Below are positions 13,053 through 56,649 of a stretch of DNA of 64,000 nucleotides, in pieces. Under the pieces are notes generated by a model. It ran no database searches. It saw nothing but the letters and a program-made list of their open reading frames with translations, and had not been told where the DNA came from. The stretch is from assembly GCA_973895155.1 (NCBI GenBank), contig OZ316894.1, forward strand, positions 22,812,609 to 22,876,608. The letters are read 5' to 3'. Source of the DNA: Marsupella aquatica (taxonomy: Eukaryota > Plantae > Marchantiophyta). A program made the translations under genes and the position numbers. Each line of letters opens with the position of its first letter. The stretch's first letter is position 1.

Positions 13053-13134
13053 AAGTTCTCAGGCCAGACCGTGGGGCAAATAAAAATATGCCATTGTTCT
13101 GCAGGACCCTCTGCCAATTTCTGCTGTCTGCAGG

Positions 13135-24190: not shown

Positions 24191-24881
24191 AAGTTCTCAG
24201 GCCAGACCGTGGGGCAAATAAAAATATGCCATTGTTCTGCAGGACCCTCTGCCAATTTCTGCTGTCTGCAGGGTCGTCATTTTGCAGAATAGGCGAAGTA
24301 GCTGGCGGTAAAATTCTCCTAAGGATCTTCTCGATCAGGATCCTCTTGTTGGCTAGAAATGTAGTCCCTAACGACTCCAGAGAGTGATTGTGGCACCCTT
24401 TCAGCAAGCTCTCGAAACAGAACGTCAACATTCCTTTGGCAATCATCTCATCATCGATCATGATACTGTCAAACATGACGTACTTGAGAGCGTCATTTTG
24501 CAGAATAGATGGCAGTAGCTGGCTGTCTACACACCGGGTAAATTTCTCCAAAGAATCGTCTCGATCAGGATCCTCTTCTTGGGCTAGAAATGTAGTCCCT
24601 AACGACTCCAGAGAGTGATTGTGGCACCCCTTGCAGCCAGCTCTCGGAACAGAACGCCAACTTTCCTTTCGCAATCATCTCATCATCGATCATGATACTG
24701 TCAAACATGACGTACTTGAGAGCGCTTACTTGTAGAAGTGTATGAGGAAATGACATAAACTGTTGGATTTGAGCCTGATGCCTGTACCCACTTGAGCTCC
24801 ATCTTTTGGTGGGACTTTGTAGAGTTATTCTTGAATAAGAGATTTTGACACACTGTCACTTGCACTTTACTTCATCGTGAA

Positions 24882-26217: not shown

Positions 26218-28500
26218 TCACTCCCGATGGAGATTCTTGAGTCTAGAAGAAAGAGGGGGGTTCAAAAATCGACCATTCTCGCTAGTGCTGGTGGTGGATG
26301 CAGGCCAATCAGGGCGTTTACAAGATTGTCTAGAATTTTGCTTAGGTGAGGAGGTTTGGCCTTGTGCATCCTTCTTATTCTCCTTGGCACCCTGCAATTC
26401 GTCGCTATCACGTTCACTATACTCCACGTTGTTGTCAGAATTGTCTACTATGGTGGCTACTTTCGTGATTCGAGGTGTTGACCGTGGTCTTGCTCGAGCT
26501 GAGGGATAGGGATTGTCGTCTGGGGTGGCGACTTTTGTGATTCGAGGTCTTGCCCGTAGTTTTGCTAGAGCTGGGGGGCATTTTACAACTGGAATAGATT
26601 TACGGTGATTTGGAAATGACGTGACGGCATCGCAGCTACAAGGTGTACTAGGCGGACCTAAGCTTTGAGCTTTTGGGCTTGCGAAATATTGACGTTCAGT
26701 TGACCGCCCTCTAGGTTTTTGAGAACTTCGACTTCTGCTGACCGTCTTCTCAAGGCATTGGCCCATCTTCCGCCTCTTCAAAGAGCTCCGCAGTCCTCGA
26801 CGTCTCAAGCCCAAGCTTTGAGATCTTGGGCTTGCAAGGTTTCTATGTTCAGTAGATCGTCCTCGAGAGGTTTGACAAGTTTGCCTACTTTGCCTTCTAC
26901 GAGACGGGCCTCGCTCAAATCCTTTTAACACGCGCCCCAATCCTCGCAAACTCGAGCTTTGGGATCTGGGGCTAGCAAGGTTTCGACGATCAGTTGATCG
27001 TCCTCGACAGTTGTGATGAATTTGACTTCTACTTCTTGTCTTGTCACTGGACCGGCCTCGCTTGAATCTCCTAAACACTCTCCCCGGTGCTTGCCGCAAA
27101 CCCGAGCTTCGGGATCTTGGGCTTGCAATGTTTCGATGTTCAGTTGATCGTCCTCGAGAGTTTTGACGACTTCGGCTTCCATTGATCGTCTTCTCAGAAG
27201 ACCGGCCCCGCTTGGATCTCTTGAACACTCGCCCCAATCCTTCTCCCAAACCCGAGCTTTGAGATCTGGGGCTTGCACTGTTTCGATGCTCAGTCGATCG
27301 TCCTCGAGAATTTTGACGACTTCGATTTCTACTGATCGTCTTCTCACGAGATCGGCCCCTCTTGAATCTCTGAAAGACTCGCCCCAATCCTCGTCTCAAA
27401 CCCGAGCTTCGCGATCTTGGGCTCGCAGGATTTTGATGTTCAGTCGACTTTTCTCCAGAGCTTTGACGACTTCGACTTCTATTCAAGCTCTTCTCAGGTG
27501 ATCTGCCCCTCTTGAATCTCCCAAACACTCCCCCAAATCCTTTGGGTTTTTGGGATGTTTGATCAACCTTTCCTTCATTGCTTGCACTTGGTGTTGGCCA
27601 TAACCAACCTGTGAAGTTGCCAGTGGCACCCTTCTTGTGGGGGGTACTGGCTCCAGACCCAGTATCCTGATTCTCCCCTTGAAGATTGGGTTCAGACTCG
27701 TCTTGGGAAGTGGATTGAGTATCAGACCCACCTCCAAAACCAAACCAACTTTCAGTGAGGGACTTGGACTTGGGTCCTTTCTCTTTAGACTTGGATCCAC
27801 TCTCGCCCCGGGCCGGTTCACTCGCCAACTCGAACTTGGATCCACTACCAGAGCCACTTCTACTACCAAACCAACTCTCAGTGCTAGACTTGCACTTGTT
27901 TGATGGTTTGGGGTTTAGTGACCCTGATCTGTGGTTCGGGGATCTTGATCGGTGGTGCGGAGATCTTGACCTGAGGTTTCGAGACCTTGACCTCGGGTGC
28001 GGAAATCCACTCTTACAGCTATCATGGCTATGGCTCCTATTTCCTTCACTCATTTCTATGCCAGAATGACTATTGGCGTGACCATTGACAACCTTTTGCC
28101 TTTGAGAGTGCTCTACAAATTTTGGGCTGAGAATGTATTTGGTATTTCTTTTTCCAATAGGGATGAGTTTGCCTTGACGCACCAACTTTTCCAAGCTAAG
28201 TTTCAGTTTAGCATCAAACTTCTTCCCCAACCTCATGTCATAGTGCTTCTCAATGTCTCTAGCTATGGCCCTCTTGCTGGAGCCACGGTGTCCGAACGGG
28301 AAGGATGCACAGTTGAGGCGGAGAATTGCATCGTGAATGAGATGTGCAAACGTTCGACGGCGACACCCTTTTGACTTGGGTGTGGCCTTCCTTTTCTTTT
28401 TATATTTCTCTTCTGCTATCAGCTCATGCTTTTTCTTTGAGTGTTTTGCAATGCCCATGTCCTCCAAGGAGATGGCTTCCTCCATCCCTTCTGCTGGCAT
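26218..28500 (-). CDS. Divergent H1 winged-helix protein with Ser/Arg-rich repeat tail (protamine-like, long type B1), 760 aa
   Basis: Single ORF. TFAHLIHDAILRLNC..GSSKRAIARDIEKHY..LSLEKLVRQGKLI..YILS matches the linker-histone H15 pattern. About six 50-aa Arg/Ser repeats follow. Confidence 0.85.
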   Translation of the reverse strand: MPAEGMEEAISLEDMGIAKHSKKKHELIAEEKYKKKRKATPKSKGCRRRTFAHLIHDAILRLNCASFPFGHRGSSKRAIARDIEKHYDMRLGKKFDAKLKLSLEKLVRQGKLIPIGKRNTKYILSPKFVEHSQRQKVVNGHANSHSGIEMSEGNRSHSHDSCKSGFPHPRSRSRNLRSRSPHHRSRSPNHRSGSLNPKPSNKCKSSTESWFGSRSGSGSGSKFELASEPARGESGSKSKEKGPKSKSLTESWFGFGGGSDTQSTSQDESEPNLQGENQDTGSGASTPHKKGATGNFTGWLWPTPSASNEGKVDQTSQKPKGFGGVFGRFKRGRSPEKSLNRSRSRQSSGEKSTEHQNPASPRSRSSGLRRGLGRVFQRFKRGRSREKTISRNRSRQNSRGRSTEHRNSASPRSQSSGLGEGLGRVFKRSKRGRSSEKTINGSRSRQNSRGRSTEHRNIASPRSRSSGLRQAPGRVFRRFKRGRSSDKTRSRSQIHHNCRGRSTDRRNLASPRSQSSSLRGLGRVLKGFERGPSRRRQSRQTCQTSRGRSTEHRNLASPRSQSLGLRRRGLRSSLKRRKMGQCLEKTVSRSRSSQKPRGRSTERQYFASPKAQSLGPPSTPCSCDAVTSFPNHRKSIPVVKCPPALAKLRARPRITKVATPDDNPYPSARARPRSTPRITKVATIVDNSDNNVEYSERDSDELQGAKENKKDAQGQTSSPKQNSRQSCKRPDWPASTTSTSENGRFLNPPLSSRLKNLHRE
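26670..27545 (-). repeat. Coding tandem repeat, ~150-bp (50-aa) unit, about 6 copies
   Basis: aaacccgagctt recurs at ~27398, 27248 and 27098 (150-bp period). Unit is approximately GLGRVFQRFKRGRSREKTISRNRSRQNSRGRSTEHRNSASPRSQSSGLGE. Confidence 0.9.
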
Positions 28501-29977
28501 TTAGTTCAAAAAACACCCCTGTCTAGATACAAGTGTGCTTGACATCTCAAAGATGTATACACTACTGAAGTTTTGAGAATTGAACCTGTGGAGGATCACC
28601 AGAGCCGAAACAGTGGATAATAAGACTTTTTCCCATTTTGAGGAAATGTAAGAAGCCTACCCAACAGTGCCTCCCTAAAACAGTCTCCCTTCTTTGGAAA
28701 TTTCTTTTCATTTAATCATTCCGTATGATTACCATTCAGAACATCATAATTGTAAATAGTCCTTTCAAACCAATGTGAGACAACTGCAGAAAACTGTTGA
28801 CATATCTTGTGCTATGAAACGAGGACATGGAGCTTGAATTCTCTTCTGGTTATTAACTACAACCATCTTTGAACCCTCTATAGTTTCCTTCAAGCAGAGT
28901 TTGTCCATAAAGCGTACCGAAATAATTATGAAGACCAAAGACCTCGGAAGTGACTTTCTACGCTTATACACCGTTGGAAGGAAGAAAAAGCATACATGTT
29001 GAACAAAACAAACAATAATCCCTTCAAGATCAAGCATAGTGGTCCCTACAATAATCCGTATAGGGGTCTCTTCAAGGTCCGCATAAATTGGATGCATGTT
29101 CCACTCTCGAGACCTATTCAAAAATTGTATTTCATGGTCATTCCTTTGGTTGCTTGGGTGCTGAAAAACCATTGTAATGTGTGATGCGTCCCATGGTAGG
29201 CCCCCCTCCCCACCCTCACTCCCCTTTCCAACAGTCATGCATGGGCAACGAATAAAACTCAATGAATGATGAGAGATAAATCAATGTGTCGTTTCATTTT
29301 CCAAGATGCCCCTTCATGATGAGTGCAACCCTTTGCACGACGGTTGCATTAATTTAGAAGTTGGTCATGGTCTATACGGTCCAAAAAGACGCACATCTTG
29401 AAAAACAAAACGGTGTACAAAAATGTGAGCTGCGAGCACCAAGACTGATGATCCAACGGCAGATAATGATATACAAGATATAATTGTCAAACAAACCGAT
29501 CATGTTGGAGTTGATGTATCTTCGAAAAGGATAAATACTTACGTCAAATAAATCCATTTATCGATGATCGTGACTTTTCATGATTTCGAGAGAATTTTGT
29601 AATTAAGACCGTCGGATTGACGCCACGTCAGCAATCCGAAGTCCCCAAGCGTCATTGGATGGTTTGGGAATGTGAGGTTTGCCAAGAGGATTTTGACAGT
29701 TTTCAAGCTTAACCCAAGGCTAAGCTCATGACTGAGGAGGTGTGAATTGATCCATGTGCAAGGAAAGGAACGAATGGGATGATTGGGCATCAATTCTAAA
29801 GAGTGGCTGCAGCCAAGGATTTTTTCTATAATTACATGCTCCATACCATCCCGTCTAGTTTGTGGGGTCCTGTGTCATGGTTAGGAGATGAACTATGCTT
29901 AAATTTTAGGCCTGCCCCTGCACCATTTCTCAGGTCTTTCACAAGCATGATTGGTTAGAGGTGCACCAGTTGTCACA

Positions 29978-30649
29978 ATGAGTGTTAAGGGGGAAGACGA
30001 TTTGATGATTGGGGAGCCCTCTGGGTCTAAGGGGGCAGGCAAAGTCTTACCAACTTACAGTAGCTTAATTCACGATGTCATTAGTACGCTTAAGCAACGA
30101 GGGGGGTCAAGTGCTGTTGCAATTCGCAAGACCATTGAACAAAAGGTGGGCCCAAAGTTGGGACCTAACTACAAGAAGATTGTTGGCTCCACACTGTCCA
30201 AGTTGGCCAAGTCGGGGAAGTTGATCAAGACTGGCAACACTTTCAAGTTGAGTCCACAATTCAAGCAAGAGAATCTTCGTCGTCGGAGGCGCCATCGACA
30301 TAAGAAGGGTCGAAAGAGGCGCAGGAGGAGACGTAGAAGAAGAAGACGTGGGAGGAGAAAAGGTCGCAAAGGGAGGAAGCATAGGAGGAGGAGAAGGAGG
30401 AGGTCTAGAAAAGGTAGGAAAAGAAGAAGGAGAAGAAGAAGAAGAAGGTCAAGAGGCAGACGATCAAGATCCAAATCCAGATCAAGATCACCCCGTCGTC
30501 GTCATCGTCGCCGTCGCCGTCGGAGAAGAAAAAGCCGAGGAAGAGGAAAATCCCATGCAAAATCACATGGAACAAAAAGAGTTAGACATGCATCACATGT
30601 CCACATTCATCAAGCTAATTCAGAACAAAGTTCTATAGGGGGAGATTAG
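29978..30649 (+). CDS. H1-like protamine precursor (short type A1): H15 globular domain plus poly-Arg tail, ~223 aa
   Basis: ATG at 29978 (the ORF track starts at an upstream TTG). PTYSSLIHDVISTLKQRGGSSAVAIRKTIE..LSKLAKSGKLIKTGNTFKLS is a canonical H1 globular domain. It is followed by ~95 aa dominated by Arg runs with RSRSKSRSRSPR. Confidence 0.92.
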   Translation: MSVKGEDDLMIGEPSGSKGAGKVLPTYSSLIHDVISTLKQRGGSSAVAIRKTIEQKVGPKLGPNYKKIVGSTLSKLAKSGKLIKTGNTFKLSPQFKQENLRRRRRHRHKKGRKRRRRRRRRRRRGRRKGRKGRKHRRRRRRRSRKGRKRRRRRRRRRSRGRRSRSKSRSRSPRRRHRRRRRRRRKSRGRGKSHAKSHGTKRVRHASHVHIHQANSEQSSIGGD

Positions 30650-33600
30650 AGTCCCCTTATCCATCCTTAGTTATCAAGCAGACAATTCTTGTAGGGTGAT
30701 GCACTTTAAATATATTAAGTGTTAGCCTTCTGGAGATGTCTGACTTGAACAATTTTAGCCCTTTCAGAAGTCTGGAAATCATTTCTCATGGCTACAAGTA
30801 ATTCCAGGCAGAAAGAAAGTGAATAAACTTAATTTATGCATATGTTTTAATTTGCTTAGTAGCTTGAAAACGTGATGGAGCAAGCTAAGCCCACATATAC
30901 ACGGTGTCAATCCTTGTTTCACTATGCAACATGGTGGTGAGCATGTGACAGCTACATACACTCCTGGGAACAATTGTACTTCTACATGGTCGGTTCAAGA
31001 AAAACCATCCAAAGTTTAGGAGCAATTAGGTTAACTAGCTAGATACCAGCCAAACCAGGACCCAAACATGATTCTCAACAAGGTACCTGCTACATTGATC
31101 ATATGAAAATAAAAAAATTAAATAATGCACTTGTTTGGTGAAAATCATAAGTTGAATGTACATCTTCTACCCTTTTATCAAGCATGGTTAATGATTAGTT
31201 CAATCAACTGGAACTCACAAGAGCCCAAGGGCTACACAGACTTTTGCACAGATCCTGATATTCATGCTTCCATAGGTTTTGTTGTCTGCCAAGGCAACTC
31301 CTACATGATCTATTCTGCACCTCTTTTCTGCTTGTTGCTGAGCTGAACTAGAGTGGGCCTGCCTAGCTGATGACCATCCTCGTTCTCGTCTTGAATTTGG
31401 AGTGATCCCTCAATTTACCCCTTGATGTTTTTGAAGTTGCCTTGTTGTTTGTTGGGTAAGTCGGTTCTGTCTTGCTCAAAGTAAAGGTTCCATGCCTATA
31501 TAATTGGCAGTGCTTTTCTCTGAAATAATATATCCTGGTTTCCTTTTCAACCCTCTTAGATGGATCAGCTGCTGGCATCCCGGTCCTATTGATTTTCAGT
31601 TATAGTACATTATCTTTGAATTGTTAGCAACCCTGGCCCTGAACAACATTCTCTACAACGATGAAGGCTCCTGTGATTGAGTTTCACCATGCCTGCTGAG
31701 CATCATGCCACACGGAGTGCTTGCAAACACTATTCCTTCAATCACCTGTCCAGGATGAGTTTTAACATAACAACTTTTACGGACTCACTGTGTGCTGGCA
31801 AATTTGTTGGTGGACTTGGTTTGGCTTGTGTTAACTAAGACTCTTGAATCGTTATTGTTGGTTTGTTTTTTGTTGGTGGATACCATGATTTTGTGGCTGA
31901 CTAGATCCCACTCGAGATCCAATCTGGTCTCTTGTTCCTGACCAGCCTGCCCGTGGGTTAGGCTGCGGCTCTTGCTTGTGCCGTCTCCCTGAGTGTGGTC
32001 ATTCTCGGTTTGTATATATGTCTGTTTTCAGTTGCCCTGTTGGTTGTGGTTCTTGCCGCTCCTAGCTTGGATATAAAGTTTGCTCTGAAATAGAAGTTAG
32101 GGGAAGTCATTTGACTTCAAGTTCTACCATCCACTAACATTCGTGGTTACTTCCAGTCATTGATCTGCATGGCTGAGATGCAAAGCATCTTTCCCTATGA
32201 AACTAGGCTAGTCCACTTGGATATTCAATTGGGTTCCTAATCACTGATATTGTTTAAATTTGGGTTTAAATATCTTAATTTGAGGCTTATTCTGTTCAGG
32301 GTAGTGACTCACCAGCTACGCAAAGACTTGAACTTTATATCTAACATTTGCCATTGGCAAGTCCATGTCAGTCCCTAGTCCATAGGTGGGTGCATCGGTT
32401 ATTCTTAAAGTGTGTGAGAGATATATGTAGCTTTTGGGCAACTTCGTTAGAACTCTTACCTTCAGTATTGTACCTCTTTCTGGACAAACCAAGAGTATTA
32501 TGTTTTAAGTACAAGTCCAACAAAATGAATAGACAAAAATATGTACAAGTCCAACCTCATATCCATGGATGGATCCAGCATGTTCACTGGATTCCAAACC
32601 CCATGCAACCAAAACGGGCAGCCAATTTACATTAAAAAATTGTCTGTATGTCTGCTGAATTAATCAAAGATGCTATTTCATATGAAGAGAGGACCAAGAT
32701 TGAAGGCCAAATGAGAAATGTATGTCATCCTTAAATACCCTAAAGTGTGTGTAAGCTCAGCTCCATGATCAAATGAGTGGTGATAATGGGCTACATTACA
32801 GTACCCAAAAGCAACCACAGTTAAGGACTTTTCGCAGCTCATAATCTAAACAAAGCCCTTGAACCAGTACCTTACCCTAGTCAAAGGGTTGAAACAATAC
32901 AGGACTCTAATTAGAAGAAAACAAAAGCCACAAATATTCAGCCTTGAATGAGAACTAGGAGTAGAATCGGGAGTAAAATTAACCTTAACTAACATTTCCT
33001 GAGGAGCCCGTCCAGCCAGAGGTTTCACCCCAAAAGTTAACCTACCAACTAACCAAGTCTTCTTCTAGGGTATTCATTTAATTTATAAGCAGCTTCTTTA
33101 CAAGTAGCTAAAACTCTTTATTCTATATTATTTTGACCCCAATCTAGACAAGGTTGCTCATAAATTACAATAAATAATATTAGCTACCAGAACAAGTTGA
33201 ATGATGACAGGAAGAAACACTGCAGTATTGCTGTCCTAGATGGCACAGGCCATGCAAAAGATATTTTTTATTTTTTATTGCAGGAAATAAGACAACGCCA
33301 ACAAATATTATCCTGTTTAAATCATTGGAATTTAAAAACATTGCAGACACTGAAATGTCAGTGTTTACACCGCATGTTTAGACTGTTCTTAAAACTTGCA
33401 TAATAATTGTTTTTTCAAAGTTACACAAATGCTCTAAAATATTTTGTTGGTCAGGTCCAAAATTTGTAAGTGTTATATATTTATAGCACGATCCCCATGG
33501 GACTGCTGTACTACACACCACCAATATTCTTGTGAAAGTATGTTCCTATTGTGGATTTGTTTATAAGGAGTCTGTAGCATTAGTGGGGTAAGTAGTGCCA

Positions 33601-35449
33601 CATGTACCTAACATCTGTAAAATGGGTTTCAATCTTAGTTTGGCAGCCTTGCCATATTTAGTACATGCCTGAGTACATGTGAGCCTTGCGACCCTTTATG
33701 GTCCATTATTTTTGAATTACAAAGTGATCTCACACTGCAATGGGAGATCAACAAGTCTTATCTGGGTGCGCACAAGTTGGCCAGCTTCGCTACCTGACCA
33801 TGGACAACCTGTAACTACGCCACAAGTGAAGTCGTAAAATTTATCCAGAACTATGACCTTCATAGAAAAATGATGAAGTTCAAAAGGTCACCAATACCTG
33901 CTCAACATTACCAGCTGAGCAAGATGTTCTGGTTGCTAGAGGACAATGTCACTTTGGAGTTGCAAGGGAAGCTGTTCTTTGACTCTTTGGGCAAGCGGGA
34001 GAACAGGCATACTGTGGCCTCCTGCAAACCAACTAATTATTGCGCTGCACTTTCAGGAGCCAAGGTTGGAGATCTATGTGAGTCAGATTGTGTGCGGGAT
34101 TGTGTGCATGGGGGTGCCCAGCTGCGGAGACCGTGATTCCGGCATGTTTGATCTTGTTGCTGACCCCAGAGTGGAGTTCTTACAATCCAAGTTTTTATCA
34201 TGGAAAACCATGAGTGGATCTTAGAAGAATCTGGCAATGAGACTTGATTGGGGCTAAGGACAGCCAATTAGTTGGCATCCTTCAAATTACCTTGGAGTAC
34301 TGCAGAGAGCACCTCCAGGGCCAGGATGACAATTTGAGGAAGTCAAAAGGAGATGCTCAGAGTTAAGAGGAGCACTTTTGTGTACATACACATCACTACA
34401 CAACATACATTGTGTGTCACACACATCCAAATTAAAGTAGGCACAAACAAGCATAGGAGAATGGGATATAAGTGGAACTCATGTCCACACATGTCCAAAA
34501 CCCACAATAATCTTCACAAGAATCAAACCACAATTGATGCCAACAACACACAACCGATCACGTTTGATCCGATCACACACGTATGCTGAGCCATGTACAC
34601 GCACCTTGCGTTCAAGGAATCCATGTTTATGTATACAAATCTGGACGGCCACACCATAGCTGCCAAAGCTCATGCTTGAAGACTCAACATCAAAAGATGA
34701 GGCCTCCAAGCCGCCACAAGGGATAACTATCCCAGCCTTCAAACGTAGAGAAACCCTAAAGTGCTCAATAACACACAGTCATATGAAAGCTCTAAACTCA
34801 GACAACATGATATATTCTAATAGTGTTCATAATGGTGTGACAACGTATTGTTTTCATAACAGGCAAGCAATATTTGCATATTGTGCCAATATTATTTCTA
34901 GTCAAAGTGGTTTAGAGGCTAGGCCTTGTTAGAGGCTAGGTTGAAGATAAATTTTCTAAAATTCCACACTTCAAATAAAGTAGGAGACACCATTTAGGTG
35001 GTGCTACACTGTCTATTGTTTTCTTAGCCTTACATTGGAACATCCAAGTGATCAATATATGCATCTAAGCACCCTTTCTAAAAAATTCCCAAGTATACAT
35101 AGCTACTCTATTAATCTGTTCATGGTCTCCACATCTGAAGCTCCATATTTAAGTAAAGTAATTTGAAAGCCACAAGTAGCCACAAGTATTGGCAAAATAG
35201 CCAAATGAATACAAGTATAATTTACTTTTATGCCATGCAAGCTCTTGAAATGTTGCATACTCATGCAAAAGTAGTCTTGAACTCTTGCAAGTAAAGACTA
35301 TGAGTAAGAGCACTCTACAAGATTGACAAGCCTTGGGGATGTAAACTAGGATCTCTTGGACAGATGGAATACTCTCCGTGACCATTGAGATAAACCATTC
35401 AGTTAGGATATATGAGACTCAACATGAGATCTTCTAGCTAGACTTGGAT

Positions 35450-37000
35450 TTAATTAGGGCTGGCAGAAGGCTCTGAAGTCTGAGGCCCAATATCTAAAGG
35501 TCTCTGAGTACTAGAAGGGGTCTTGGAAAAATCTTGAGGCCTGGAGGGGCCTCCCTCACAAGTTGTAGTACTTGTACGGTCGGAGCCAAAAGCACCACGA
35601 AGAGAATCCCTAACTTTCTCCAAAAGACTTCTCCGGCTTGGAAGACCTCTACTTCTCTCCTTCATAGCATGAAATCTGTCATGCTCCTTCCTAGACCTAT
35701 TTTTTACCATGGGCGTGCTGCCTTCTGATGTTGTGTTGCTCATGTCCTCATCAGCATCCTTGTCGATGTCAGACATTGAACTGGGAGGTGTTTCATAATG
35801 AAAGTTGTCAATGGGATCCAGGGAGCCTTCAGAAGCCTCACTTGCTACATAGTGAGAATCCACTTTTGACAGGTGAAGGGATCCCATTGGAGTAAGTAAG
35901 ACAGGTTTCTCCTGACGCTCGCGGATTCGAAGCCTCTGAAATTTACCGTACCTTGATCCCTTTGCACAACCATTTGAGTCTCTACCAGATTTGTAGTTCC
36001 TTTTTTGAGACATGGGCATGTGCTTCCATTTCCCTAGCATGTGTTTGCTATAAGTTTTCCTCTCTTCATTGTGGGCCTCAGCTTTAGCATTTTTTTCGCC
36101 TTCAACTTTGTCTTCCTTGGAGGGCCAAAGCCACTTTCTTATACTACCCCCAAAATAATTGCTGCTGGATCCCTTCTTTGACTTTGTCTTCTTGCCACGA
36201 TGGCGAGCTCGGCCATGTGCACGATGTTTTGTCCTCGTCCAACCCCTCCCCCTTTTTCTCCTCCCTCTCCTCTTCCTTCTCCTCCTTCTCCTCCTTCTCC
36301 TCCTACTATGAGACCGCCTCCTATGAGATCTGCTCCTACTTCTACCCCTGCTCCTACCCCTACTTCTATATTTGCCAATTTCCACTCCATATCGGAGGTT
36401 TGCAGCTCCATCAATGACCTTGAGTCGTGCAATTTTTTTCAGAAATGCTACACTTGGTTTGTACTTCAAGCCCTTGTTCTTGCTACCAATAGAGATAAGC
36501 AAGCCTTTTGCCACAAGCCTTTCAAAACTCAGTTGTAATCTCACTTTGAACTTCTTCCCAAGTTTCAACCTGTAATGTCTTTCAATGTTCTTTAAAATTT
36601 GCTTATGGCTGTATCCAGAGCGGTGAATGTGGGAACACTTGAGGCGGAGGAAAACGTCATGAATGAGATGAGCAAATGTTGCATGGTGATGTCTAAGCAT
36701 TGACACTGTGGATTTTCTCTTCTTCCTCTTCCTCTTCTTCTTCCTCTTCTTTTGCGAGCTCTTACTCCATACCTTCCGCCACCATGATTTCTTCTTCACT
36801 TTGGTCTTCTGTTTGGCCATAGCTTTTGTTTTTATGACTGGGGGCAGCGATTGCTCTAACCTCAGCTCATCCTCCATTTCCTCCTCTTTTCCATCTGATT
36901 CGGGTCCTGGGGAAAATTCTGATGTTGACTCATATTCGATGTCATCAATGGATGCATTTTCCGAACATTGGTTACCTCGAGAGGCAAACAATGATGACAT
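35450..37000 (-). CDS. Divergent H1 winged-helix, Arg-rich protamine-like protein (long type B2), 516 aa
   Basis: Acidic N-terminus, then a Lys-rich segment, then HATFAHLIHDVFLRLKC..GYSHKQILKNIERHY..LSFERLVAKGLLI. After that come RSRGRSRG and a long poly-Arg run, and a Ser/acidic C-terminus. Confidence 0.88.
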   Translation of the reverse strand: MSSLFASRGNQCSENASIDDIEYESTSEFSPGPESDGKEEEMEDELRLEQSLPPVIKTKAMAKQKTKVKKKSWWRKVWSKSSQKKRKKKRKRKKRKSTVSMLRHHHATFAHLIHDVFLRLKCSHIHRSGYSHKQILKNIERHYRLKLGKKFKVRLQLSFERLVAKGLLISIGSKNKGLKYKPSVAFLKKIARLKVIDGAANLRYGVEIGKYRSRGRSRGRSRSRSHRRRSHSRRRRRRRRRRKRRGRRKRGRGWTRTKHRAHGRARHRGKKTKSKKGSSSNYFGGSIRKWLWPSKEDKVEGEKNAKAEAHNEERKTYSKHMLGKWKHMPMSQKRNYKSGRDSNGCAKGSRYGKFQRLRIRERQEKPVLLTPMGSLHLSKVDSHYVASEASEGSLDPIDNFHYETPPSSMSDIDKDADEDMSNTTSEGSTPMVKNRSRKEHDRFHAMKERSRGLPSRRSLLEKVRDSLRGAFGSDRTSTTTCEGGPSRPQDFSKTPSSTQRPLDIGPQTSEPSASPN

Positions 37001-37564
37001 GTTTCAATCCCGGTTTGATTTTTAATCCTGGTGAAACTGGTGACCACCTGTAATCCAATTTCTCTTGGGAATTCAGTTTGGAAACTAGCATGAAATGTGA
37101 GTACTGTGTCTTAAATTTTGTAGTGTGCCAACTTTTCTGACATTTCATGTATAGCCTTGCCAGAATTATCACCCCTTTCAATGACATAGGGATGTCAAGA
37201 GGACCAAAGAGATTATTTGGCACCTATTTCACGGGTCTTAACAGATCAGGCTCTGTAAAATGTAAAATTTGGAGGATAGTTAACCAAAAAAAAATTGATT
37301 CTGCAAAAACAAAGAATGAGTCCCAAAGTGCTTGGAAGTGGCCAAGCTCCACGGTAATTTTTTTGGCTAGGTATGATTTATGGTCAAACTGATAACGTGA
37401 TCCTAAAAGGACTGAAGCAATAAAGGCCAGATCATCAACTGTTTAGTACACTTAGAGGAAAGTCCCTAAGAATTCCCTTAATATGAGAGCTTATTCATGT
37501 GTCAATAGGGTATAATTATGTTGAAAACAGAAGCAACAACCTGTAACAATAGCAGATTTTATCG

Positions 37565-37595
<31 letters not shown>

Positions 37596-40500
37596 ATTTT
37601 ATTTGCCTCAATTGAAAAACATGCAATCAAGTATGAAACTCTCATGAGCCTTCTCTGCTACCGAGACAAACCCCCACCCACAAACCCCCACCCTTCCTGA
37701 TGAATATTTTAGTAAATATTCACAAAAGTATCAGTAAGTAGCTAAGTGGCCTTAAGATATCTTGGTAAGAACAGCTTTAATGATCTTCCCAGTATAAGAA
37801 GGATGCAATGAAATCTAGCTTCTTATGCATCAATAAAAGCAGAATCTGTGAATTAATCTCACTTTCAGATTCTACAGTAAAGCAGCACGTGGAGAAGTCA
37901 TCAAGCATTGTGGATACCAGGCCTACATGTTTTATTCATGTTTTTGTATAGTTTTGAAATGTGTGCCTTGTTGAATTTTGATGTCCTTAATTTCTACCTG
38001 TTCCAACCCCTGATTTTACCTTCTGTATACTTCCAGCAAGCCAAACTAGAGGCATTGGGCATACACAATCCTTCACAATTTCCAATTCTGACTAGGACCG
38101 ATTTGGATGCTACAGTTTCCAGGCCTCTGGTACCCCTCACGTCTAAGGAGAATGAAATCTTGATCATCTCGAAGAATGATCATAACTCTTGAACTCAAAA
38201 TAATAATTCAATTCAAACAGCATCATTGTGGAATGGGGAATGTCAAAGCAACCTCAGTTGAAATAGCACGAGCACAAATGGCGATGGCTATTCACACAAT
38301 CAATTGGACCTACATGACTTCAATGTTGTTTATTTCCCTTGCAATTTGTCCTTCCTGACGTTGGGTTTGGTTTTATTTATCTGCCAACAAATTGGACACA
38401 TTGACCATTACTTGTTGCCAGTTACACCTTTTTCATTAGAATATGCCTTGTGATGACTTTTCAGTTCCCACAATCATCCACCCACTAAATTAAGATGATG
38501 CAATTCAAGTTCTTTCTGGGATTCTTTCCAATCTAAGTTGTCGGTGCCAGGTTCCATCATTCTCCTTCTGCCTCAAGGATAGGCGCTTGCTAATAGGGCT
38601 CCTCCATTGAGTTCCTACTTGATGATTATCACTGACTAGCTTCTCTATCGAGCGAGCCACAAACATCCCATTGCACTTCGTGCTTGTCCATGCACAGTTA
38701 TAGATCCTGGTGACATTGGCCACACTTTGGGACTGCAAAACCAAATCCTCCCACTATTATTCTGACCATTTGTTGATGGTACTCTAGTTCAGGCTTACTC
38801 GTTGGTGGCTTTTCAAAGATGCCCCAATATTTTACCACTGTTGGCATCCTTTGGATGAGAAATTCTGGCGTGACCTCATGTGGAGACCCCTAGTCACCAG
38901 AATGCAGGCACCCCTCCATTGGACAAAGGTAAACCGCAGGAAAATTAAATGAGGTGTGAATGGGAAATTCTTGCATGGGAAGCCAACAATTGCAACAATT
39001 GGTACTTTTGTTACCAAATTTTCTTCGATTCTCTCAATAAGTCTCCCATGTTTGCGGATCCTGATCACAAAGCTTACAAATCCCCTTAACCTCTCTAAGT
39101 TTGGGGACTGTTTCTTGATTCAATTGGGGTTCTCAACCTTCTTCAGCTCACAATGGCTGGCCGCAAATAACCTTTGTGAACTAAAGTAGGATTTACATTT
39201 TTCATATTGTTCTGAGTACAAATACGGTGCACATAATTTCCTTAGATTAGATAGTAGTAACAAAATTGGCTATGTATTTAATACAAAATGTACTACAAGT
39301 ATTTAAAAGATCTACACAATTTTGGAAAATAATACAGTTGGCTCTGTTAAATGGTATTGACAGTGGGCCGAAAGATAGGGGAGAGTGTTTTCTTTAAGAA
39401 TTTTCTCAGTAGCTGAAGTGGTAACAGCCCATTTTTCAAGCAAGAAGGACTGGTGACCTTAGTTATGGAACTATCATTCAGGAGGGGTAGCAATCTCTCC
39501 CTAACCCAAGGGTCTATTTTTGTGGCAAACAAGAGCTATATTTGATATGATTGGACCAGAAGCAATTCAGAAAACTTTTTCTTCTAGAAAGAAGATGAAA
39601 GCCCCCCTTAGAAATCAGATTATTTGGGGAATACCGGAGATCGAGCTTCCCCAGCACACAGCTGGGATCCATAAGGATAACATTCTCTATGGCTTGTAGG
39701 ATGTCTTGGCCTGACTAGGTCCTCCTTTTGCTGTAAGCGGGCTTCCACACCTTGAGGGTGCCTGCCCTGTAATTTTTATATGCTCCTGGTCTGCCCTCTG
39801 ACCTTCTATGAAGCATTTCCCTCTTTTATTTAAAATTTTAATAAAATCCCCCAAAATGGAAAATTTCAGAAAATAGGAGATTGGCGAGTGATGGTGGGGC
39901 CTGTGGGTCAGGGTGACGACTTGGCTCCCCAAGTTATCAGAATTTCTGACAAATTGGCCGAGGCTCAGCTATGTTTTCTGTCTAAAAAACTCAAAACTTC
40001 CCTTTTGTTGAAATTAATTATGCCAGAGAACATGAGCCGAATTTTTGCTAAAGAAATATAACCTTGGTAAAAGCAAGTTATTTGTCTAAAGAAAATATAT
40101 AAAGGTGAGGGACCAATTTATTATAATAGCAAATAAACAAGGTTGGGTGCAACTAATACCCTTTTCCAAGTGTACTCAAAATGTACTGTTGGACAGTGGG
40201 TACCTCAGGAATGTTTGTCATGTTTGGTTCCAATTTCCACTCATGGCTCATGGAGGTCGAAGATGCAACACTTCCGATGGTCACAATGTTCTTTGAAGAG
40301 ATATTAATTTATTTTTTAAAACTTGTGGTTAGCCTTGGTCCTCTTTAAGTTTGCAAGAATGAATGTTATCAATCTTGCTGTTGCCTCTTAGACTTACCAA
40401 TTGACATACTTTTGCGGTTGAACGCAAGCACAGATTCTTCTGATGATCTACTGCTGATTGCTCAACTTTGTCGCATTTCTGCATCATGGGAGTTGACAAT

Positions 40501-42716
40501 GCTACTACTAGCCTAATGTATATACCTTTGTTGCTGTGGCTCAAGCTTTATATGATTGCTGATTGCTCAGAGTGGGCATTGCCCAGTTGAAAATCATATG
40601 TTTGTGGGGGGAATTTCACTCCCAAGCAGAAATTTCCAAATCAGAGAGGTTGCCAGCACAACTACATATGCAGACGTTGCTGGGTTACTTTATGTCAGGC
40701 GGAACGTCGTATGGACATGCTAAAACGTCCCGGAAGTTGTTCATAATGTTTGCGTCCTCCCATACGGCAATTAGAGTACTTCGTCTCACAAGTGATCACT
40801 TCCAATTTTTTGATTTTCAACTTGACTAGGCAGCTGAGTTCAGAGAAATGCTATCTTTTGTGGTTTTCTAAACTGAAGTGATGATTGTGGTCTAGAAAGA
40901 TTTGATTTTACAATTCCGTCCTTCCTCACTGAACTAAATGAGTGTGTCTGACTTCATGACGTGATGGCTTGATTATGCATAAGAAAGATCAAGAAGGTGC
41001 TTTAGTGCTTGATTTGTGAATATTCATTGTAGTCTTGATCTCTGGGGCACATGGAAGGGGAACCATTTGCATTGAAGTTACTTAAAATTCTCACTATATA
41101 TATAGCCTCAAATTTACTCCACGTGTACACATGATTATGCAATTATTGTAAAAGAGGGTAAGAAGGTAATTGCCTACATATCTAGTATGAAAGATTCAAC
41201 AATTGCCCTTATTTCAAAGACAGTAATAGGCCAGGCACAACTGCCAAGTTCTCTTCAGCTTTGTGCATTTTATCTGTTGACCTTTATGCAGTGTTCCAAA
41301 TTTTATTTGGAAATTGAAAGATATTACCAGGAGAAACAATTGAGAAAGAATCAGTACTCAGAGCATTATTTTCCGCAAAAATAGAATGCACTCAACACCT
41401 GGTGTGAGACATCCATGGTTTCAGTGGGAATGAATTTTGGCCAATTCTTCAACATTTATAAATACCTTGCTAAAAGCACTCAAGGCATCTATTTGGAGAA
41501 AGTCTTAATCTTGCACATTGATTCCATAGTAGTAGTTGTATGAAATCGGGTAAGAAATCAATGACTACGTAACTTCACAAGTTCCTACTTTTATTTAATT
41601 GGCCATACCTGACCTCAACAATTTAATTAGTTTAGATCAAATTAATGAATTCAACAAGACTGTTCAAAGCTATTTTATATGTTCAAGAGGAATACTTGGC
41701 TAAACCAACACATGCCAAAACGTATTTGTGAAAGGGAATGGCGATGGATTCATTGGTTGTGTAGCAAAGATCATCCCAATTACTGGCGAGCAGAACTGTT
41801 TGTGAAAATCTTTCATATATATGTAAGAGTGTCAACATGAACCTACAACCCTGTTCCAGCTCGTTTGCCTCATATATTTCATGGACCCCTTCTTAGAAAA
41901 CACCCTGCAACTTCTGAGGGAAGGAATTTACTACTTCCAAATATTGCATTAAAACTGTGGAGTGAGGAACTAAGTTTCAGGCAAAAATATGTCTTTTTCT
42001 CCATATGATGAGATTCAAGAAGATGAATTCTCAAATTTTGTTTGGAGCACATTATTCTGACTAGTAAATTGTAGTTTGCGATTGTCATTGAATTATTTAG
42101 AGCTTGTGTCAACCCTTCATATCCCTAGTTTTGGATCACATCTTGAACTCCACTTCAAAACATTCACTACTGATGTTGCCTCAATTCTACAACTTTATTA
42201 TTTCCTCTGCATATATTATAGACATTTCCTCATTAAGACTTCACACTCAAAAATAGGCCCCAGTCTCAATGTACAATGCTTTCATATTTTAACTACAAAT
42301 CTCAAGAAATGTTGGATTGGCACGCAGTATTAAGCACTATCCACCAAACTGCCTGAGGAGGTTTTGGCCCCGCAGGTAACCTCATTGGCAAGATGGATAT
42401 TACATTTCAATGAAAATTTGCAAACATCCCATTAACCTGTCACAAATGGCATCTCCAATCCGGGCTCCAATTCAATTCACCAATTCAAACGCAAGAATGT
42501 TATATGTATTCCCCAAAATTGTGTGCTCCTCATGGAGCATTACTTTAGCTTTTCCTTGACCTTATCTCTTGCTTTTGTATCTTTCATCAGGTTTCTGTGT
42601 AAAGGTTGTTGTCTTGTCTTTCACCCACGATGGATTTCTTGAGTAGTGGTGCTTCTCTAACAGTCGCTTAAGATCAAAATCAGGGGCTTTTGGCTCACTT
42701 TGGTTGAAGAGTATAG

Positions 42717-43466
42717 TTACCTTCGTCTTCTTCTTGGGCTTCTACTCTTGCTCTTGCTCCTACTTCTATTTCTATTTCTATTCCTACTTCTGCTTCTACT
42801 CCTGTGTTTACGAGGGCTCCTGCTTCTGCTCCGACTTTCACGGATTGTGATGCCAAATCTTCGGTTTGCACCACCACGAATGACTCTTAGTCGTTCAAAG
42901 TGCTTACAAAATGCTCTTGTGAGTGTGTAGTGTTTGCTACCGACCTTGCTTTCATAGCAATCCAGCTTCTTTTTTGAAATCAGCTCAGACAAACTGGCTT
43001 GAAGGTTCTTTTTGAACTTTCTTCCCAACTTCAATTCATACCAATCTTCAATGTTCCGTACCATGGCCCTTTTGCTGAACCCATGGTATCGTTTCCTGTT
43101 GCGGGTTCTTCCACAATTTAAGCGAAGGAGGGCGTCATGGATGAGATGGGCAAATGTTGCATGATGCTTCTTTCGCATAGCTGGTGTAGAACCCCCCCTC
43201 CATCGCCCCCTTCTCCCCTTTCTTGTGGGTATTTTTCTTCTTTTCCATCGATGATATCTCTTCTTTAATTTTCTCTTCTTCCTAGGATGCTTTTGTTTTT
43301 TGCCGTGCCTCGTCTTTAATTTTGTTTCCTGTGGACCTCCTTTCTCATCACCCTCTTCCTTAGGTTTCTCTGGTGGTGATCCTTCCTCTAAATTCCCATC
43401 TGGATTTGGACCTTCAGGTGCTGTAGCTGGGGCGTCAGCCCCTTGAGGATCACCACTACCACTCAT
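42717..43466 (-). CDS. Divergent H1 winged-helix protamine-like protein (type B3), ~249 aa
   Basis: ATG at 43466 (the ORF track starts at a GTG). Acidic/Pro N-terminus, basic segment, HATFAHLIHDALLRLNC..GFSKRAMVRNIEDWY..ASLSELISKKKL, then an RS-repeat tail. The stop overlaps a possible AG|GTAACT splice donor, so the C-terminus is uncertain. Confidence 0.85.
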   Translation of the reverse strand: MSGSGDPQGADAPATAPEGPNPDGNLEEGSPPEKPKEEGDEKGGPQETKLKTRHGKKQKHPRKKRKLKKRYHRWKRRKIPTRKGRRGRWRGGSTPAMRKKHHATFAHLIHDALLRLNCGRTRNRKRYHGFSKRAMVRNIEDWYELKLGRKFKKNLQASLSELISKKKLDCYESKVGSKHYTLTRAFCKHFERLRVIRGGANRRFGITIRESRSRSRSPRKHRSRSRSRNRNRNRSRSKSKSRSPRRRRR

Positions 43467-44372
43467 GTTAGACTCCCCTTCAATTTCTCTCAGGGATCCC
43501 ACGTGTCAACCCTACAACTCATTGATGATTACTGGCATCACAAAATCTTGCTTAGCTGATTGCTTTGCTTGATGTGTCCCTTCGTGTCATCATCAGCTGG
43601 TGCTGTCTAATGAGTGTAACATTTTTGTCATGTGCCACAATTACAACCTCCACATGAGGGTCATGTGTACATACCCCTTGAGTCAATCCAAAATTGAGTG
43701 TGGAGGGCACAGATGATTTGCAATACTCTCACCTAGCAATTTGATTGGCTATCCAAAGGTTGGCAATGACATATAGGTTGGATCACCATATGAAAGGGTA
43801 CTATAGGGTTCTAGCTTAATTGGTGACTCTTGAAGTGTACCCATTGTTTCTAGTGACTAGAGCCGTTGGATGCTATGACACATCATCAATCCAAAAGCAA
43901 TGGCTCATCTAGCGGCTGAGATTAAGCCTGACTGTGAAAGATGGTGAACATTGAGAGGGAATTGTGGAGGGGTGGTGGACCAATCTGTGGGTGCTGCATC
44001 CTATGTTAGTGATTGGTAACTATTGGCAGCAACCTTTGGAAAGAGTTGCTGCATTTGAGATCTCCCTATATGTTATAAGAGGACCTCAATTCTGGTTTAT
44101 AATTTTTGGTCCATGTGTTCTTTGTAGGTCTTCAATGTTGTTTTTGTAATTCTGCTTATGCATTGTTTTATTTTAGGAACAATGGTCATAGTTTAGACTC
44201 TAGTTAGTTCACCCTTCCCCCTTCCTTTTTTTTCCTTTAGAGTCAGATTTTTGGTTCCTACTCCATCCATAAGCAACTTCCACAACATTTATGTAGTGAA
44301 GGCTACAATTAAAGCAAGCTGGCGTTGTTAACTGCACCTTCTAGTGCAGGGTGTGAGAAAGTTGCCACAACC

Positions 44373-44969
44373 ATGAATGGGGGTGGGGATTTGATGATGG
44401 GGGATCCATCAGGGTCCAAAGGAAAGGGGAAGAACTTCCAGCACCCCACTTATGCACATTTGATTCATGATGCAATCAGCACACTTAAGCAAAGGGGTGG
44501 GTCAAGTGCCATTGCCATTCGTAAAAATATTGAACAAAAAATGGGACCTGTGTTGGGACCTAACTACAAAAAAATTGTTGGTTCTACTCTCTCCAAACTT
44601 GCAAAGTCTGGGAAGCTGATAAAGACTGGAAACACTTTCAAGTTGAGTCCTGAATTCAAGCAAGAGCACCTGAGACGTCGTAGACGCCATCATCATAAGA
44701 AGAGGAGACGACACCGAAGGCGCAGGAGGCGAAGAAAAGGACGAGGGAGGAAGAAAAAGAAGGTTCACAGGAGAAGGAGGAGAAGAAGAAGAAGACGAGG
44801 AAGAAAAGGAGGCAGGAGGAAACGCAGACATAGACGCAGGAGAAGATCACATTCTCCCAAACATAAGCATCGGCGCCGACGCAGGAGAAGAAGAAGAAGA
44901 TCAAGGTCTCGAAGGAGAGGAAGATCTCATGCTACAGGTTGGAAGAGAGAGTTTGTCGTTATTGCCTAA
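44373..44969 (+). CDS. H1-like protamine precursor (short type A2), ~198 aa
   Basis: ATG at 44373. HPTYAHLIHDAISTLKQRGGSSAIAIRKNIE..KTGNTFKLS is nearly identical to A1. Poly-Arg/His/Lys tail. Confidence 0.92.
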   Translation: MNGGGDLMMGDPSGSKGKGKNFQHPTYAHLIHDAISTLKQRGGSSAIAIRKNIEQKMGPVLGPNYKKIVGSTLSKLAKSGKLIKTGNTFKLSPEFKQEHLRRRRRHHHKKRRRHRRRRRRRKGRGRKKKKVHRRRRRRRRRRGRKGGRRKRRHRRRRRSHSPKHKHRRRRRRRRRRSRSRRRGRSHATGWKREFVVIA

Positions 44970-46853
44970 AGCACTCCCAATCTTTAAAAAAAAAACAAGC
45001 AGTGACAATGTCAATAAGTCCACTATTAATAGAGCCATGATCGGCACATGAGATAAGCATCTATGGACATCACTCTAAAATGGAAAGGCTCCTATGTACC
45101 CAAAACTGACTTTAACTAGTAAAAAAGCAGATACATTAGTTCAACATATCTTGCTTTGTTAGAATCAGTAGAGAACAGGCTTATGGCATAATATAATAAA
45201 GGAAGAAATAATACTTTTATGACTAGTAGGTGGTATAAGAGTCATAAGTTTATAACTATTTCCCCTTTGCATGTTGACCATCGAGAAAATATTTGTGGGC
45301 AATTAAGATTTCATAACGTTTAGAAAGCCACATAATCACTTACAGAAAAATGCCCCTCGAATATCCTCACTCATAATTAAAATACTGGAACTTTAGTCGC
45401 ACCTATGTCACCCATAATGAAATTGGCTCGACTGAGTCCTACAACCTTTGATGATGACAATGCAGGAACACGCTCACCCAGCAAACGAGCTGTGGAAGAG
45501 TTGAACGATTAATGAGACTTGGTGGGAGACAAGCCATTGAACCTACAGACAAATCTTAATGAATTCATAGCAGAAACGTTGATGATCAATCTTACACTAG
45601 ATAAATAATACAGAAGGGATTGATACGTCCATATGGAAAACCCATTCTAGATCACATCCAACAATATGATGAAGTTTCTCTAATATAGAATCAGTTATGA
45701 GTCTCTTCTTCAAGTGTAATTGAAGAAAACTATGACAGCAAACTCTAAGCAACAGATTCTTATCTTAATAATCTAAATAAAGCGTGAACGCCATATTCTT
45801 GGGCTCTGCAGAGTATAACCAAATGCTACATTTTAGACACGTTTTTCCGTGTCTTCTGCAAGAGACCTTTCATCGTTTGGTGATTCTCATTTAATCTACT
45901 TTAGGTGGGGTAAGATGCGCTAGATTACATGATAACTGGCCAAGGTTATGCAAATGAAAAGTTTTATCTTGACGAAGTGCTAGCGTCTGTCTCTAAACTT
46001 GAAATTTGTTGAAGAGAAACCTACATTGGGCAAGATGGCCGCCTTCCAAATAGACCAAACTTTTCTCAGATGTTGCAAATGTCTTTTGCATGCACAACCT
46101 TGAAACAAAGAATATAGAAGTTGTGTTAAAGAGGAGACGGTCACACTTGGGTCAGTCTTGTCTGCTCATAAGAATCAATTGTGAGTTCTGTTGGTTCTTT
46201 AGAACAACTAAACATCTCGTCAATGAAGATCAACAAATCTCGAATCTCAGTGCTTGAAACCCGAACACTATGGTGTAGAGACTTCTGAAACATTTGTTGC
46301 TTTTCAACAAGAGTCTATAGAACTGAGCATTCATTCCTGAAAATAAAACGGTGAACGACTTGGGGGGGAATTGTTGCGTAGGTTGGATCACTGGAGAAGT
46401 AATCAAACAACCTGGATACAAGGGTACTATAGTCTGAATCAGATTCCATGAGAACTAGGAAAATGGTCGCAAAGCATTGCTGTGAGCACAATCATGTAAA
46501 GAATCACTATTGTGATAACGTTCGCGACCTCTTCACAAAATCGTCACGCCGAAAATAGTGCTTACATCTTTGGTATTGATCTTTCATGTCCACAGATGGT
46601 AATTAGTATTGGCCTCACACATTTGAAATATACTTTGGCAAGCGCAGTACATATAAATTATCAATTGGATCTTAAAACCTGAAGTCATAGCTTACTCGCT
46701 TCAAACATAGCATTCTTCGCAGAGAGCATCACCGGGGTGTATCGAGACATTGAAGGAATCACTTTATTTACAATTACACTGATTGCGAGAACGCTATAGG
46801 TAAAAATGGAACTTTTTGACCAGTGGCGATAAAAGGTTCAATCGGCTCATACA

Positions 46854-56175: not shown

Positions 56176-56649
56176 GAGATTGGATAGTAGCAACCTCTGA
56201 TCCGAAAGTCTCCAAAACAAGCCAAGCATATAGGCACCCCTGGGCCCTCACTCTTACTATATTAAGTGAAACCCCCTAAGAACATGTTGAACTATGACGT
56301 ACTCCTTGACTAATTTTGTGCACACGTAGTCGACACAATCCAATACGTGATCCTTATGAATTATTTCAGATTAAGTAGTGCATGCTTCAGGGTTAAGGTT
56401 AGTGTTTTAGCTATATTTAGGGTTCAATAAACATACATATGAAAATTTAAACTTTTGTTATTGATGATGATATTTTATAAAAAGTGTTGTTTACATTGTA
56501 ACTTGTTATGTATTTCCAAACAAACAAAATGAATGACCTAAACCTTATCATTATTATGTTTCTTCTTGAGCAAAAGTTTTTACGGGTCCAGTTAGAGACT
56601 TCTGTAAATCTGAAAATTTTGTCAAAATTCCACGTCACCCTGTAAATAT

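What the first reader, a model, noticed from the sequence alone, without database searches (positions are those of the whole stretch)
26218..44969. Five-gene cluster of H1-derived, arginine-rich protamine-like genes: a candidate plant sperm-chromatin locus
Seen: five single-ORF genes within 19 kb, each with a linker-histone winged-helix domain. Their tails are Arg-dominated (long poly-R, RS, SPR) rather than the Lys/Ala/Pro tails of somatic H1. Established: animal PL-type sperm proteins are H1-derived, and Marchantia polymorpha protamines arise by cleavage of male-germline-specific H1 histones. Inference: this is a dedicated, physically clustered sperm nuclear basic protein locus, analogous to animal protamine clusters, holding several stages of the H1-to-protamine transition. 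I do not know of such a clustered organisation being described in plants, but could not search.
Basis: partly seen in the sequence, partly recalled or inferred. Interest (0 to 1): 0.92.

Follow-up and report, generated by a model that had tools for sequence, protein, structure and literature searches.

The report
Liverwort sperm-packing histone gene cluster
A leafy-liverwort-like genome carries five arginine-enriched linker-histone genes side by side: two are close relatives of a known Marchantia sperm protamine precursor and likely pack sperm DNA, and three belong to an apparently undescribed subfamily whose role in sperm is only inferred.

Summary
The five open frames are real, and all carry an H1-type winged helix (Pfam for four; profile and predicted fold for the fifth). 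They are not five stages of one transition but two old subfamilies. Type A (g2, g5) are co-orthologues of Marchantia PL-1, a published protamine precursor (g5 domain 70/78 identical, counted by eye). Type B (g1, g3, g4) form a separate supported clade with an enlarged domain, close to none of the three Marchantia PL domains by eye (a distant link to PL-2 is untested). The order is B-A, B, B-A, with two head-to-head pairs; Calypogeia fissa has g3, g4 and g5 orthologues under consecutive accessions. Against a universal cluster: Riccia relatives lie on different contigs, Sphagnum relatives stand alone, and the PL-3 type is absent from the window. Corrections: g5 probably has an intron; g1 has no poly-arginine, only RS/SPR repeats. 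Expression is untested, and DUO1 sites are at chance level. Verdict: new variant of the known liverwort H1-to-protamine system. The scan's notes held no earlier report on this DNA.

The parts
26218..28500 (-). g1, type B: H1-derived winged helix (about aa 49-128) with a long Ser/Arg tail; no poly-Arg
   Evidence: ORF; PF00538 23.2 bits; clade B 97/99; composition
26661..27542 (-). 150-bp tandem repeat (5.9 copies) encoding six ~50-aa RS/SPR units in the g1 tail
28501..29977 (.). 1477-bp spacer between the divergent starts of g1 and g2 (candidate bidirectional promoter); one DUO1-consensus site at 29339
   Evidence: orientation; motif (chance level)
29978..30649 (+). g2, type A: co-orthologue of Marchantia PL-1; winged helix plus 122-aa Arg tract and a C-terminal His motif shared with PL-1
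   Evidence: comparison by eye
35450..37000 (-). g3, type B: enlarged winged helix, 62-aa Arg tract, long mixed-charge C-terminus; orthologue of C. fissa CAM6088006/CAM6100798
42717..43466 (-). g4, type B: basic N-arm, enlarged winged helix, short RS/Arg tail; orthologue of C. fissa CAM6088007/CAM6100797
43467..44372 (.). 906-bp spacer between the divergent starts of g4 and g5 (candidate bidirectional promoter); one DUO1-consensus site at 43861
44373..44937 (+). g5 exon 1, type A: co-orthologue of Marchantia PL-1, orthologue of C. fissa CAM6088008; winged helix plus ~100-aa Arg tract
44938..45465 (+). predicted 528-bp GT-AG intron of g5
   Evidence: splicing inferred, not seen in RNA
45466..45512 (+). 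predicted second exon of g5 (spliced product 203 aa)
   Evidence: tblastn of P0001 residues 195-210: 87.5% over 16 aa

Best explanation
This is a cluster of five H1-derived genes from two old bryophyte subfamilies, laid out as two head-to-head B/A pairs plus one extra B gene, that likely supplies the DNA-packing proteins of maturing liverwort sperm. Shown: the frames, the H1-type domains, the two clades, the closeness of g2/g5 to Marchantia PL-1, and consecutive accessions of three orthologues in Calypogeia. Inferred from Marchantia (about 0.9 for g2/g5): the genes switch on late in spermiogenesis, the winged helix brings the precursor to chromatin, and cleavage frees the 100-120-residue Arg tract, which neutralises DNA and replaces nucleosomes as protamine. 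Inferred more weakly (about 0.6): type B proteins are made in the same cells, the pairs sharing a two-way promoter. g3 and g4 would give further Arg/RS peptides, and g1 would act as an RS/SPR-repeat, phosphorylation-controlled transition or uncleaved protamine-like protein.
For: g5 and PL-1 share 70 of 78 domain residues; g2 shares 64 of 77 plus a 10-residue His-rich C-terminal motif (counted by eye against Dataset S5 of PMC12849711, which credits PL-1 to D'Ippolito 2019). Marchantia protamines arise by cleavage of male H1s, and MpPRM is late-spermiogenesis-specific and DUO1-dependent (passages). Type A domain 87% identical to two Riccia proteins. Tree of 55 domains: A 96/94, B 97/99, C (PL-3 type) 100/99, all starred; all Arg-rich groups separate from Lys-rich plant H1 at 94/94, unstarred. 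g3 has an Arg tract that is even richer in its Calypogeia orthologues. C. fissa g3-, g4- and g5-like proteins are CAM6088006, 007 and 008 on one contig; g4- and g3-like are CAM6100797 and 798 on another.
Against: No expression or protein evidence for any of the five genes. Type B has no characterised relative, and g1 and g3 have only 0.14-0.16 net charge per residue against 0.37 for type A. DUO1 sites in the two spacers number 2 against 0.97 expected (P 0.25), and there is none within 2 kb of g3. The two spacers do not align better than shuffles (17 of 60 shuffles reach the score). The cluster is incomplete and not general. PL-3-type genes are absent from the window; in C. fissa one is about 235 accessions away on the same contig and two are on other contigs. 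Riccia sorocarpa A, B-like and C relatives lie on three different contigs. 10 of 10 moss-type loci (two genes, 2-20 kb) hold one H1-like gene only. No g1 or g2 orthologue was found in C. fissa. In a related organism 14 of 22 changed codons of a part of the g1 tail are non-synonymous, near neutral (only 25 listed differences of several hundred were used).
Confidence: 0.62

Rival explanations
1. Only g2 and g5 are protamine precursors. Type B proteins are H1-derived chromatin proteins with another job (spores, desiccation, earlier germ-line stages), and they lie next to type A because they arose from it by an ancient local inverted duplication.
For: g1 lacks poly-Arg; g1 and g3 have long weakly charged tails. 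The B domain has insertions after helix 1 and in the wing, and a conserved C-terminal extension. The B relatives P0016 and P0038 are not Arg-rich (10% and 14% Arg). An A+B clade is not rejected (p-AU 0.46), so descent alone can explain the linkage.
Against: g3, g4, P0013, P0014 and P0017 carry Arg or RS tracts directly behind the domain, where type A has its tract. The g3-g4-g5 order is kept in Calypogeia, and the divergent layout occurs twice in the window.
Confidence: 0.25
2. The locus is an ordinary duplicated gene family in turnover: g3-g4-g5 is the working set, and g1/g2 are extra copies under relaxed selection, g1 lengthened by a recent internal repeat and without its own function.
For: No C. 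fissa orthologue of g1 or g2. g1 tail changes look near neutral. g2 has a longer end branch (0.23) than g5 (0.014). A g2+g5 clade is not rejected (p-AU 0.055).
Against: Both frames are open over 760 and 223 codons. g2 keeps the PL-1 C-terminal motif that g5 lacks and groups with Riccia (94/83). The g2/g5 coding DNA is only 77% identical and the spacers are unalignable, so the copies are old. C. fissa gene models of this family are visibly faulty, so absence there is weak.
Confidence: 0.1
3. All five are somatic or S-phase linker-histone variants, not sperm proteins.
For: No expression data here. One histone-promoter-like hexamer site lies in the g1/g2 spacer (29623; 3 in the window; the motif is recalled).
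Against: Tails are Arg-rich, whereas the plant H1 rows sampled are Lys-rich. Type A is the orthologue of a male-specific Marchantia precursor.
Confidence: 0.03

Closest known systems
Marchantia polymorpha PL-1 (BAU71552; likely the MpPRM / Mp3g14390 product, link not verified), with PL-2 (PTQ35141) and PL-3 (PTQ32223)
   Same: H1 winged helix followed by Arg tracts; g2/g5 domains 83-90% identical to PL-1 by eye; several such genes per genome.
   Different: Two PL-1 copies here, each head-to-head with a type B gene. Type B is close to none of the three PL domains by eye; g1 shares Trp/Phe-Gly motifs behind the basic tract with PL-2, so a distant link is open. The PL-3 type is absent from the window.
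Animal protamine-like (PL-type) sperm nuclear basic proteins, such as mollusc PL-I
   Same: H1/H5-type winged helix with Arg/Ser-rich disordered arms, often cleaved to protamines (passages). The atlas gave a 'protamine-like' cluster at 0.81, a lead only.
   Different: The domain has plant H1 features and plant relatives; the resemblance is taken as convergent (inference; the root of the tree is weak).
Somatic plant linker histone H1 (PF00538) and histone H5
   Same: Same fold (1hst_A Z 9.2; best PDB sequence hits H5/H1.0).
   Different: Arg/His/Ser tails instead of Lys/Ala/Pro; separate clade; type B has two insertions and a conserved C-terminal extension.
Mammalian PRM1-PRM2-TNP2 locus (recalled, not from a call)
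   Same: Several sperm-chromatin genes side by side, if type B is confirmed.
   Different: Those genes have no winged helix. Co-regulation is untested here, and the cluster seems limited to leafy liverworts.

Membership tests
Linker histone H1/H5 family (PF00538) | Pfam score above the curated cut-off | tested here: inconclusive
   g1, g2, g5 pass; g3 passes only as a cut domain (23.9); g4 has no hit. 7 of 9 type B rows match at E 0.1 or better.
Linker histone H1/H5 family (PF00538) | Three-helix plus beta-wing fold | tested here: met
   Models of the g4 and g3 domains (pLDDT 69); 1hst_A Z 9.2, rmsd 2.6 over 74 residues; A-B profile match E 3.7e-13. g1, g2 and g5 not folded.
Marchantia PL-1 orthologues (g2, g5) | Domain identity and clade | tested here: met
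   70/78 and 64/77 by eye; clade with Riccia and Calypogeia 96/94 (PL-1 itself not in the tree, Riccia P0002 stands in).
Marchantia PL-1/2/3 orthologues (g1, g3, g4) | Clade with a known PL | tested here: inconclusive
   Separate from the PL-1-type and PL-3-type clades (97/99); PL-2 was not in the tree.
Protamine-like sperm nuclear basic proteins | Arg-rich tail on an H1 domain | tested here: met
   g2, g5: 48-52% Arg tails; g3, g4: 62- and 28-aa tracts.
Protamine-like sperm nuclear basic proteins (g1) | Arginine clusters | tested here: not met
   Longest Arg run 3; no 20-aa window at 50% Arg; RS/SPR repeats instead.
Protamine-like sperm nuclear basic proteins | Expression confined to spermatids | not testable with these tools
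   No RNA holder listed.
Protamine-like sperm nuclear basic proteins | Cleavage and presence in mature sperm chromatin | not testable with these tools
   Needs mass spectrometry of sperm.
DUO1 target genes | Enriched RRCSGTT sites upstream | tested here: inconclusive
   One site per divergent spacer; 2 observed against 0.97 expected, P 0.25.
Recent tandem array of one gene | The five genes form one clade | tested here: not met
   AU test p 1.6e-54.

The most novel reading that the evidence does not exclude
Leafy liverworts have a dedicated sperm-chromatin locus built from head-to-head pairs. Each PL-1 protamine precursor shares a two-way, DUO1-driven promoter with a member of a fourth, undescribed H1-derived subfamily. 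That subfamily, with its rebuilt winged helix and RS/SPR repeats, acts as the plant counterpart of transition proteins that open nucleosomes before protamines load.
Probability: 0.25. Interest if true: 0.8.

Novelty: new variant of a known kind. Interest (0 to 1): 0.55.

Why it matters
Plant protamines are known at sequence level almost only from Marchantia. This locus shows the PL-1 domain held at 83-90% identity across the two main liverwort lineages. It adds a subfamily that partly escapes Pfam and that public gene models garble (several Calypogeia and Riccia models appear to leave the Arg frame). It also offers paired genes with short shared spacers, in which co-regulation and division of labour in the histone-to-protamine exchange can be tested directly. 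If type B acts as a transition protein, plants and animals would have converged on a two-step exchange as well as on protamines.

Tried and rejected
No whole genome is held, so genome-wide copy number was not tested. No RNA holder listed: not evidence either way. Homodimer prediction for the g3 domain gave no answer (score 0.03, alignment not used): no evidence for or against. Foldseek alone gave no match at E 0.001 or better; H1/H5 ranked 3, 5, 6 and 7 among winged helices. The wide structural search was not run. Spacer footprinting failed: no significant alignment between the two spacers or with the g3 upstream region. DUO1 sites: chance level here, and none within the upstream 0.8-1.5 kb in 6 of 6 moss loci examined. 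A CAACGG excess in the spacers (3 against 0.43, P 0.009) was chosen after seeing the data and is not counted. One strict histone stem-loop pattern (recalled) was not found behind any gene; it is uninformative for plants. The metagenome scan returned only moss-type A relatives and no type B locus (10 of 52 candidate stretches). A hidden sixth gene or A-type partner for g3: none. A full list of differences in g1 of the related organism was not obtained, so selection on g1 stays open. 'Stages of a transition' rejected. Assembly artefact unlikely. Earlier scan notes: nothing by sequence or place, four unrelated notes by words.
Full report
OBSERVATION. The stretch holds five long frames: g1 (760 aa, -), g2 (223, +), g3 (516, -), g4 (249, -) and g5 (198, +). 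Shuffles give none of that length (0 in 100). Pfam's linker-histone model passes for g1, g2 and g5, passes for g3 only when the domain is cut out, and misses g4. A profile of the family finds exactly five domains in the 64 kb. The g4 and g3 domains model as three helices, a wing and a further C-terminal helix (pLDDT 69). g4 superposes on histone H5 at Z 9.2, rmsd 2.6 over 74 residues, tied with PadR-type winged helices; by sequence the best solved relatives are H5 and H1.0. Contigs of four public runs from two studies cover the stretch evenly, spacers included, so the arrangement is unlikely to be an assembly error; the best holder may be the source sample.

CORRECTIONS. g5 is probably not a single-exon gene. 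A GT-AG intron at 44938-45465 leads to a short exon whose translation matches the end of the Calypogeia orthologue (87.5% over 16 aa). The tails differ widely. g2 and g5 have 100-120-residue tracts of at least 50% Arg, g3 has 62 residues and g4 has 28. g1 has none: its tail includes six ~50-residue RS/SPR repeats from a 150-bp tandem array.

RELATIVES. g5 finds 6 proteins among 7985 candidates scored: Calypogeia fissa (96% in the best segment), two Riccia (87%), a Marchantia paralogue (36%) and two unnamed. g4 finds 3 of 5992, two from C. fissa. The g3 domain finds 1 of 127, from C. fissa. The window is thus probably a leafy liverwort (inference). A profile search gave 803 proteins at E 0.001 or better, 150 listed; these added further type B proteins, Sphagnum type-A-like proteins, a third group (C) and many Lys-rich H1s. 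I built a tree from 55 of 205 extracted domains, leaving out near-copies and most Lys-rich H1s; only 78 columns were kept, so deep forks are weak. Groups: liverwort A 96/94, B 97/99, C 100/99, Sphagnum 99/94, and all Arg-rich groups against Lys-rich plant H1 94/94. One clade of the five window genes is rejected (p-AU 1.6e-54). A+B together (p 0.46) and g2+g5 together (p 0.055) are not rejected. The genes are old paralogues, not steps of one transition.

LINK TO THE KNOWN SYSTEM. Dataset S5 of PMC12849711 lists three Marchantia proteins credited to D'Ippolito 2019. By eye, PL-1 matches g5 at 70 of 78 and g2 at 64 of 77 domain residues, and shares a His-rich C-terminal motif with g2. PL-3 is the stored protein P0004 (group C), which has no close copy in the window. 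PL-2's domain is unlike type B, but it carries Trp/Phe-Gly motifs behind its Arg tract as g1 does; it could not be placed in the tree, so type B may yet prove to be its distant kin. Passages state that Marchantia protamine is made by processing of sperm-specific H1s, that its sperm lacks histones, and that MpPRM is late-spermiogenesis-specific and DUO1-dependent.

CLUSTERING. The layout is g1(-)/g2(+) head to head over 1477 bp, then g3(-), then g4(-)/g5(+) over 906 bp, between aldo-keto reductase genes and a GnT-I gene. In C. fissa the g3, g4 and g5 orthologues are CAM6088006, 007 and 008 on one contig, and g4/g3 are CAM6100797/798 on another. Adjacency is inferred from the numbering; orientation is unknown. 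Against generality: C. fissa group C genes lie about 235 accessions away or on other contigs; Riccia sorocarpa A, B-like and C genes lie on three contigs of different length; and ten moss-type loci, representing two genes, each hold one such gene in 2-20 kb with no GnT-I or aldo-keto reductase match. No g1 or g2 orthologue was found in C. fissa, but its models of this family are unreliable: P0007 and P0008 lose the basic tail for acidic repeats, as a frame change would give (inference).

REGULATION. The DUO1 consensus RRCSGTT occurs once in each spacer and nowhere else between 23881 and 48066, but 2 against 0.97 expected is chance level, and the spacers do not align. No RNA run was listed. Shared control is a hypothesis from geometry only.

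MECHANISM. Most likely the winged helix loads the precursor on spermatid chromatin, cleavage frees the Arg tract, and the tract neutralises and condenses DNA. This is inferred from Marchantia, about 0.9 for g2/g5. Type B probably works in the same cells (about 0.6): its insertions after helix 1 and in the wing would change nucleosome contacts, and its RS/SPR motifs are typical phosphorylation sites of sperm basic proteins (recalled). The main rival is that B has another chromatin role and is linked by descent.

LITERATURE SEEN. Passages: PMC10858212, PMC13251019, PMC6290024, PMC10808223, bioRxiv 10.1101/2025.03.22.644562, PMC12851517, PMC9668745, PMC12216123, PMC9402228 (its supplements searched, no hit), PMC12849711 (plus one part of Dataset S5), PMC8699743 (supplement passages only; one file unreadable). 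D'Ippolito 2019 is not held and Higo 2016 was not looked up; I saw both only as citations, and they may discuss gene positions or further paralogues. Ten searches listed no paper on a plant protamine gene cluster or on type B; the library lacks most subscription journals.

VERDICT. A real locus, and a new variant of the known liverwort H1-derived protamine system. The new parts are the type B subfamily and the paired, partly conserved cluster; the sperm role of those parts is untested.

Noticed in passing
window 34380-34850: A short high-copy repeat between g2 and g3: summed contig depth reaches thousands with many loose ends; probably a small transposon.
   Followed up: no
window about 11100-13100 and 21791-24276: Tandem aldo-keto reductase genes left of the cluster; Pfam hits at 12265, 21791 and 23380; near-identical segments recur in both copies.
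   Followed up: partly
window 47397-49450 (-) and beyond: Exons of an N-acetylglucosaminyltransferase I (GnT-I) gene right of the cluster; gene ends not mapped.
   Followed up: partly
window 55113-56275 (-): Integrase-core fragment next to a PHD-finger frame: remnant of an LTR retroelement.
   Followed up: no
window 42753-42796 and 43461: The related organism in runs X3/X4 lacks 42 bases (in frame) of the g4 RS tract, and X4 has a 19-base insertion at the g4 start. X3/X4 seem to carry both a window-identical and a diverged haplotype.
   Followed up: no
window 42717-42720 (-): The g4 stop codon overlaps a strong splice-donor-like site; a further exon is possible.
   Followed up: no
window 28971, 29452, 29609, 43863: 4 of 6 TCC(A/G)ACGG sites of the window lie in the two spacers; they resemble the MYB3R/MSA element (recalled). 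Picked after the fact, so only a lead.
   Followed up: partly
P0002, P0003, P0007, P0008: Public Riccia and Calypogeia gene models of this family switch from the basic tail to acidic or Ala-rich text, as a wrong splice or frame would give; such genes are probably often mis-annotated.
   Followed up: partly
P0005, P0019, P0021, P0023, P0031, P0035, P0055, P0063, P0112 and others: A further supported clade (99/98) of Arg/His-rich H1-derived proteins, organism not given for the members looked up: possibly protamine precursors of another seed-free plant group.
   Followed up: no
L001-L010; P0024, P0026, P0036: Sphagnum has at least three type-A-like genes with weaker Arg tails (3-20% Arg), apparently on different chromosomes.
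   Followed up: partly
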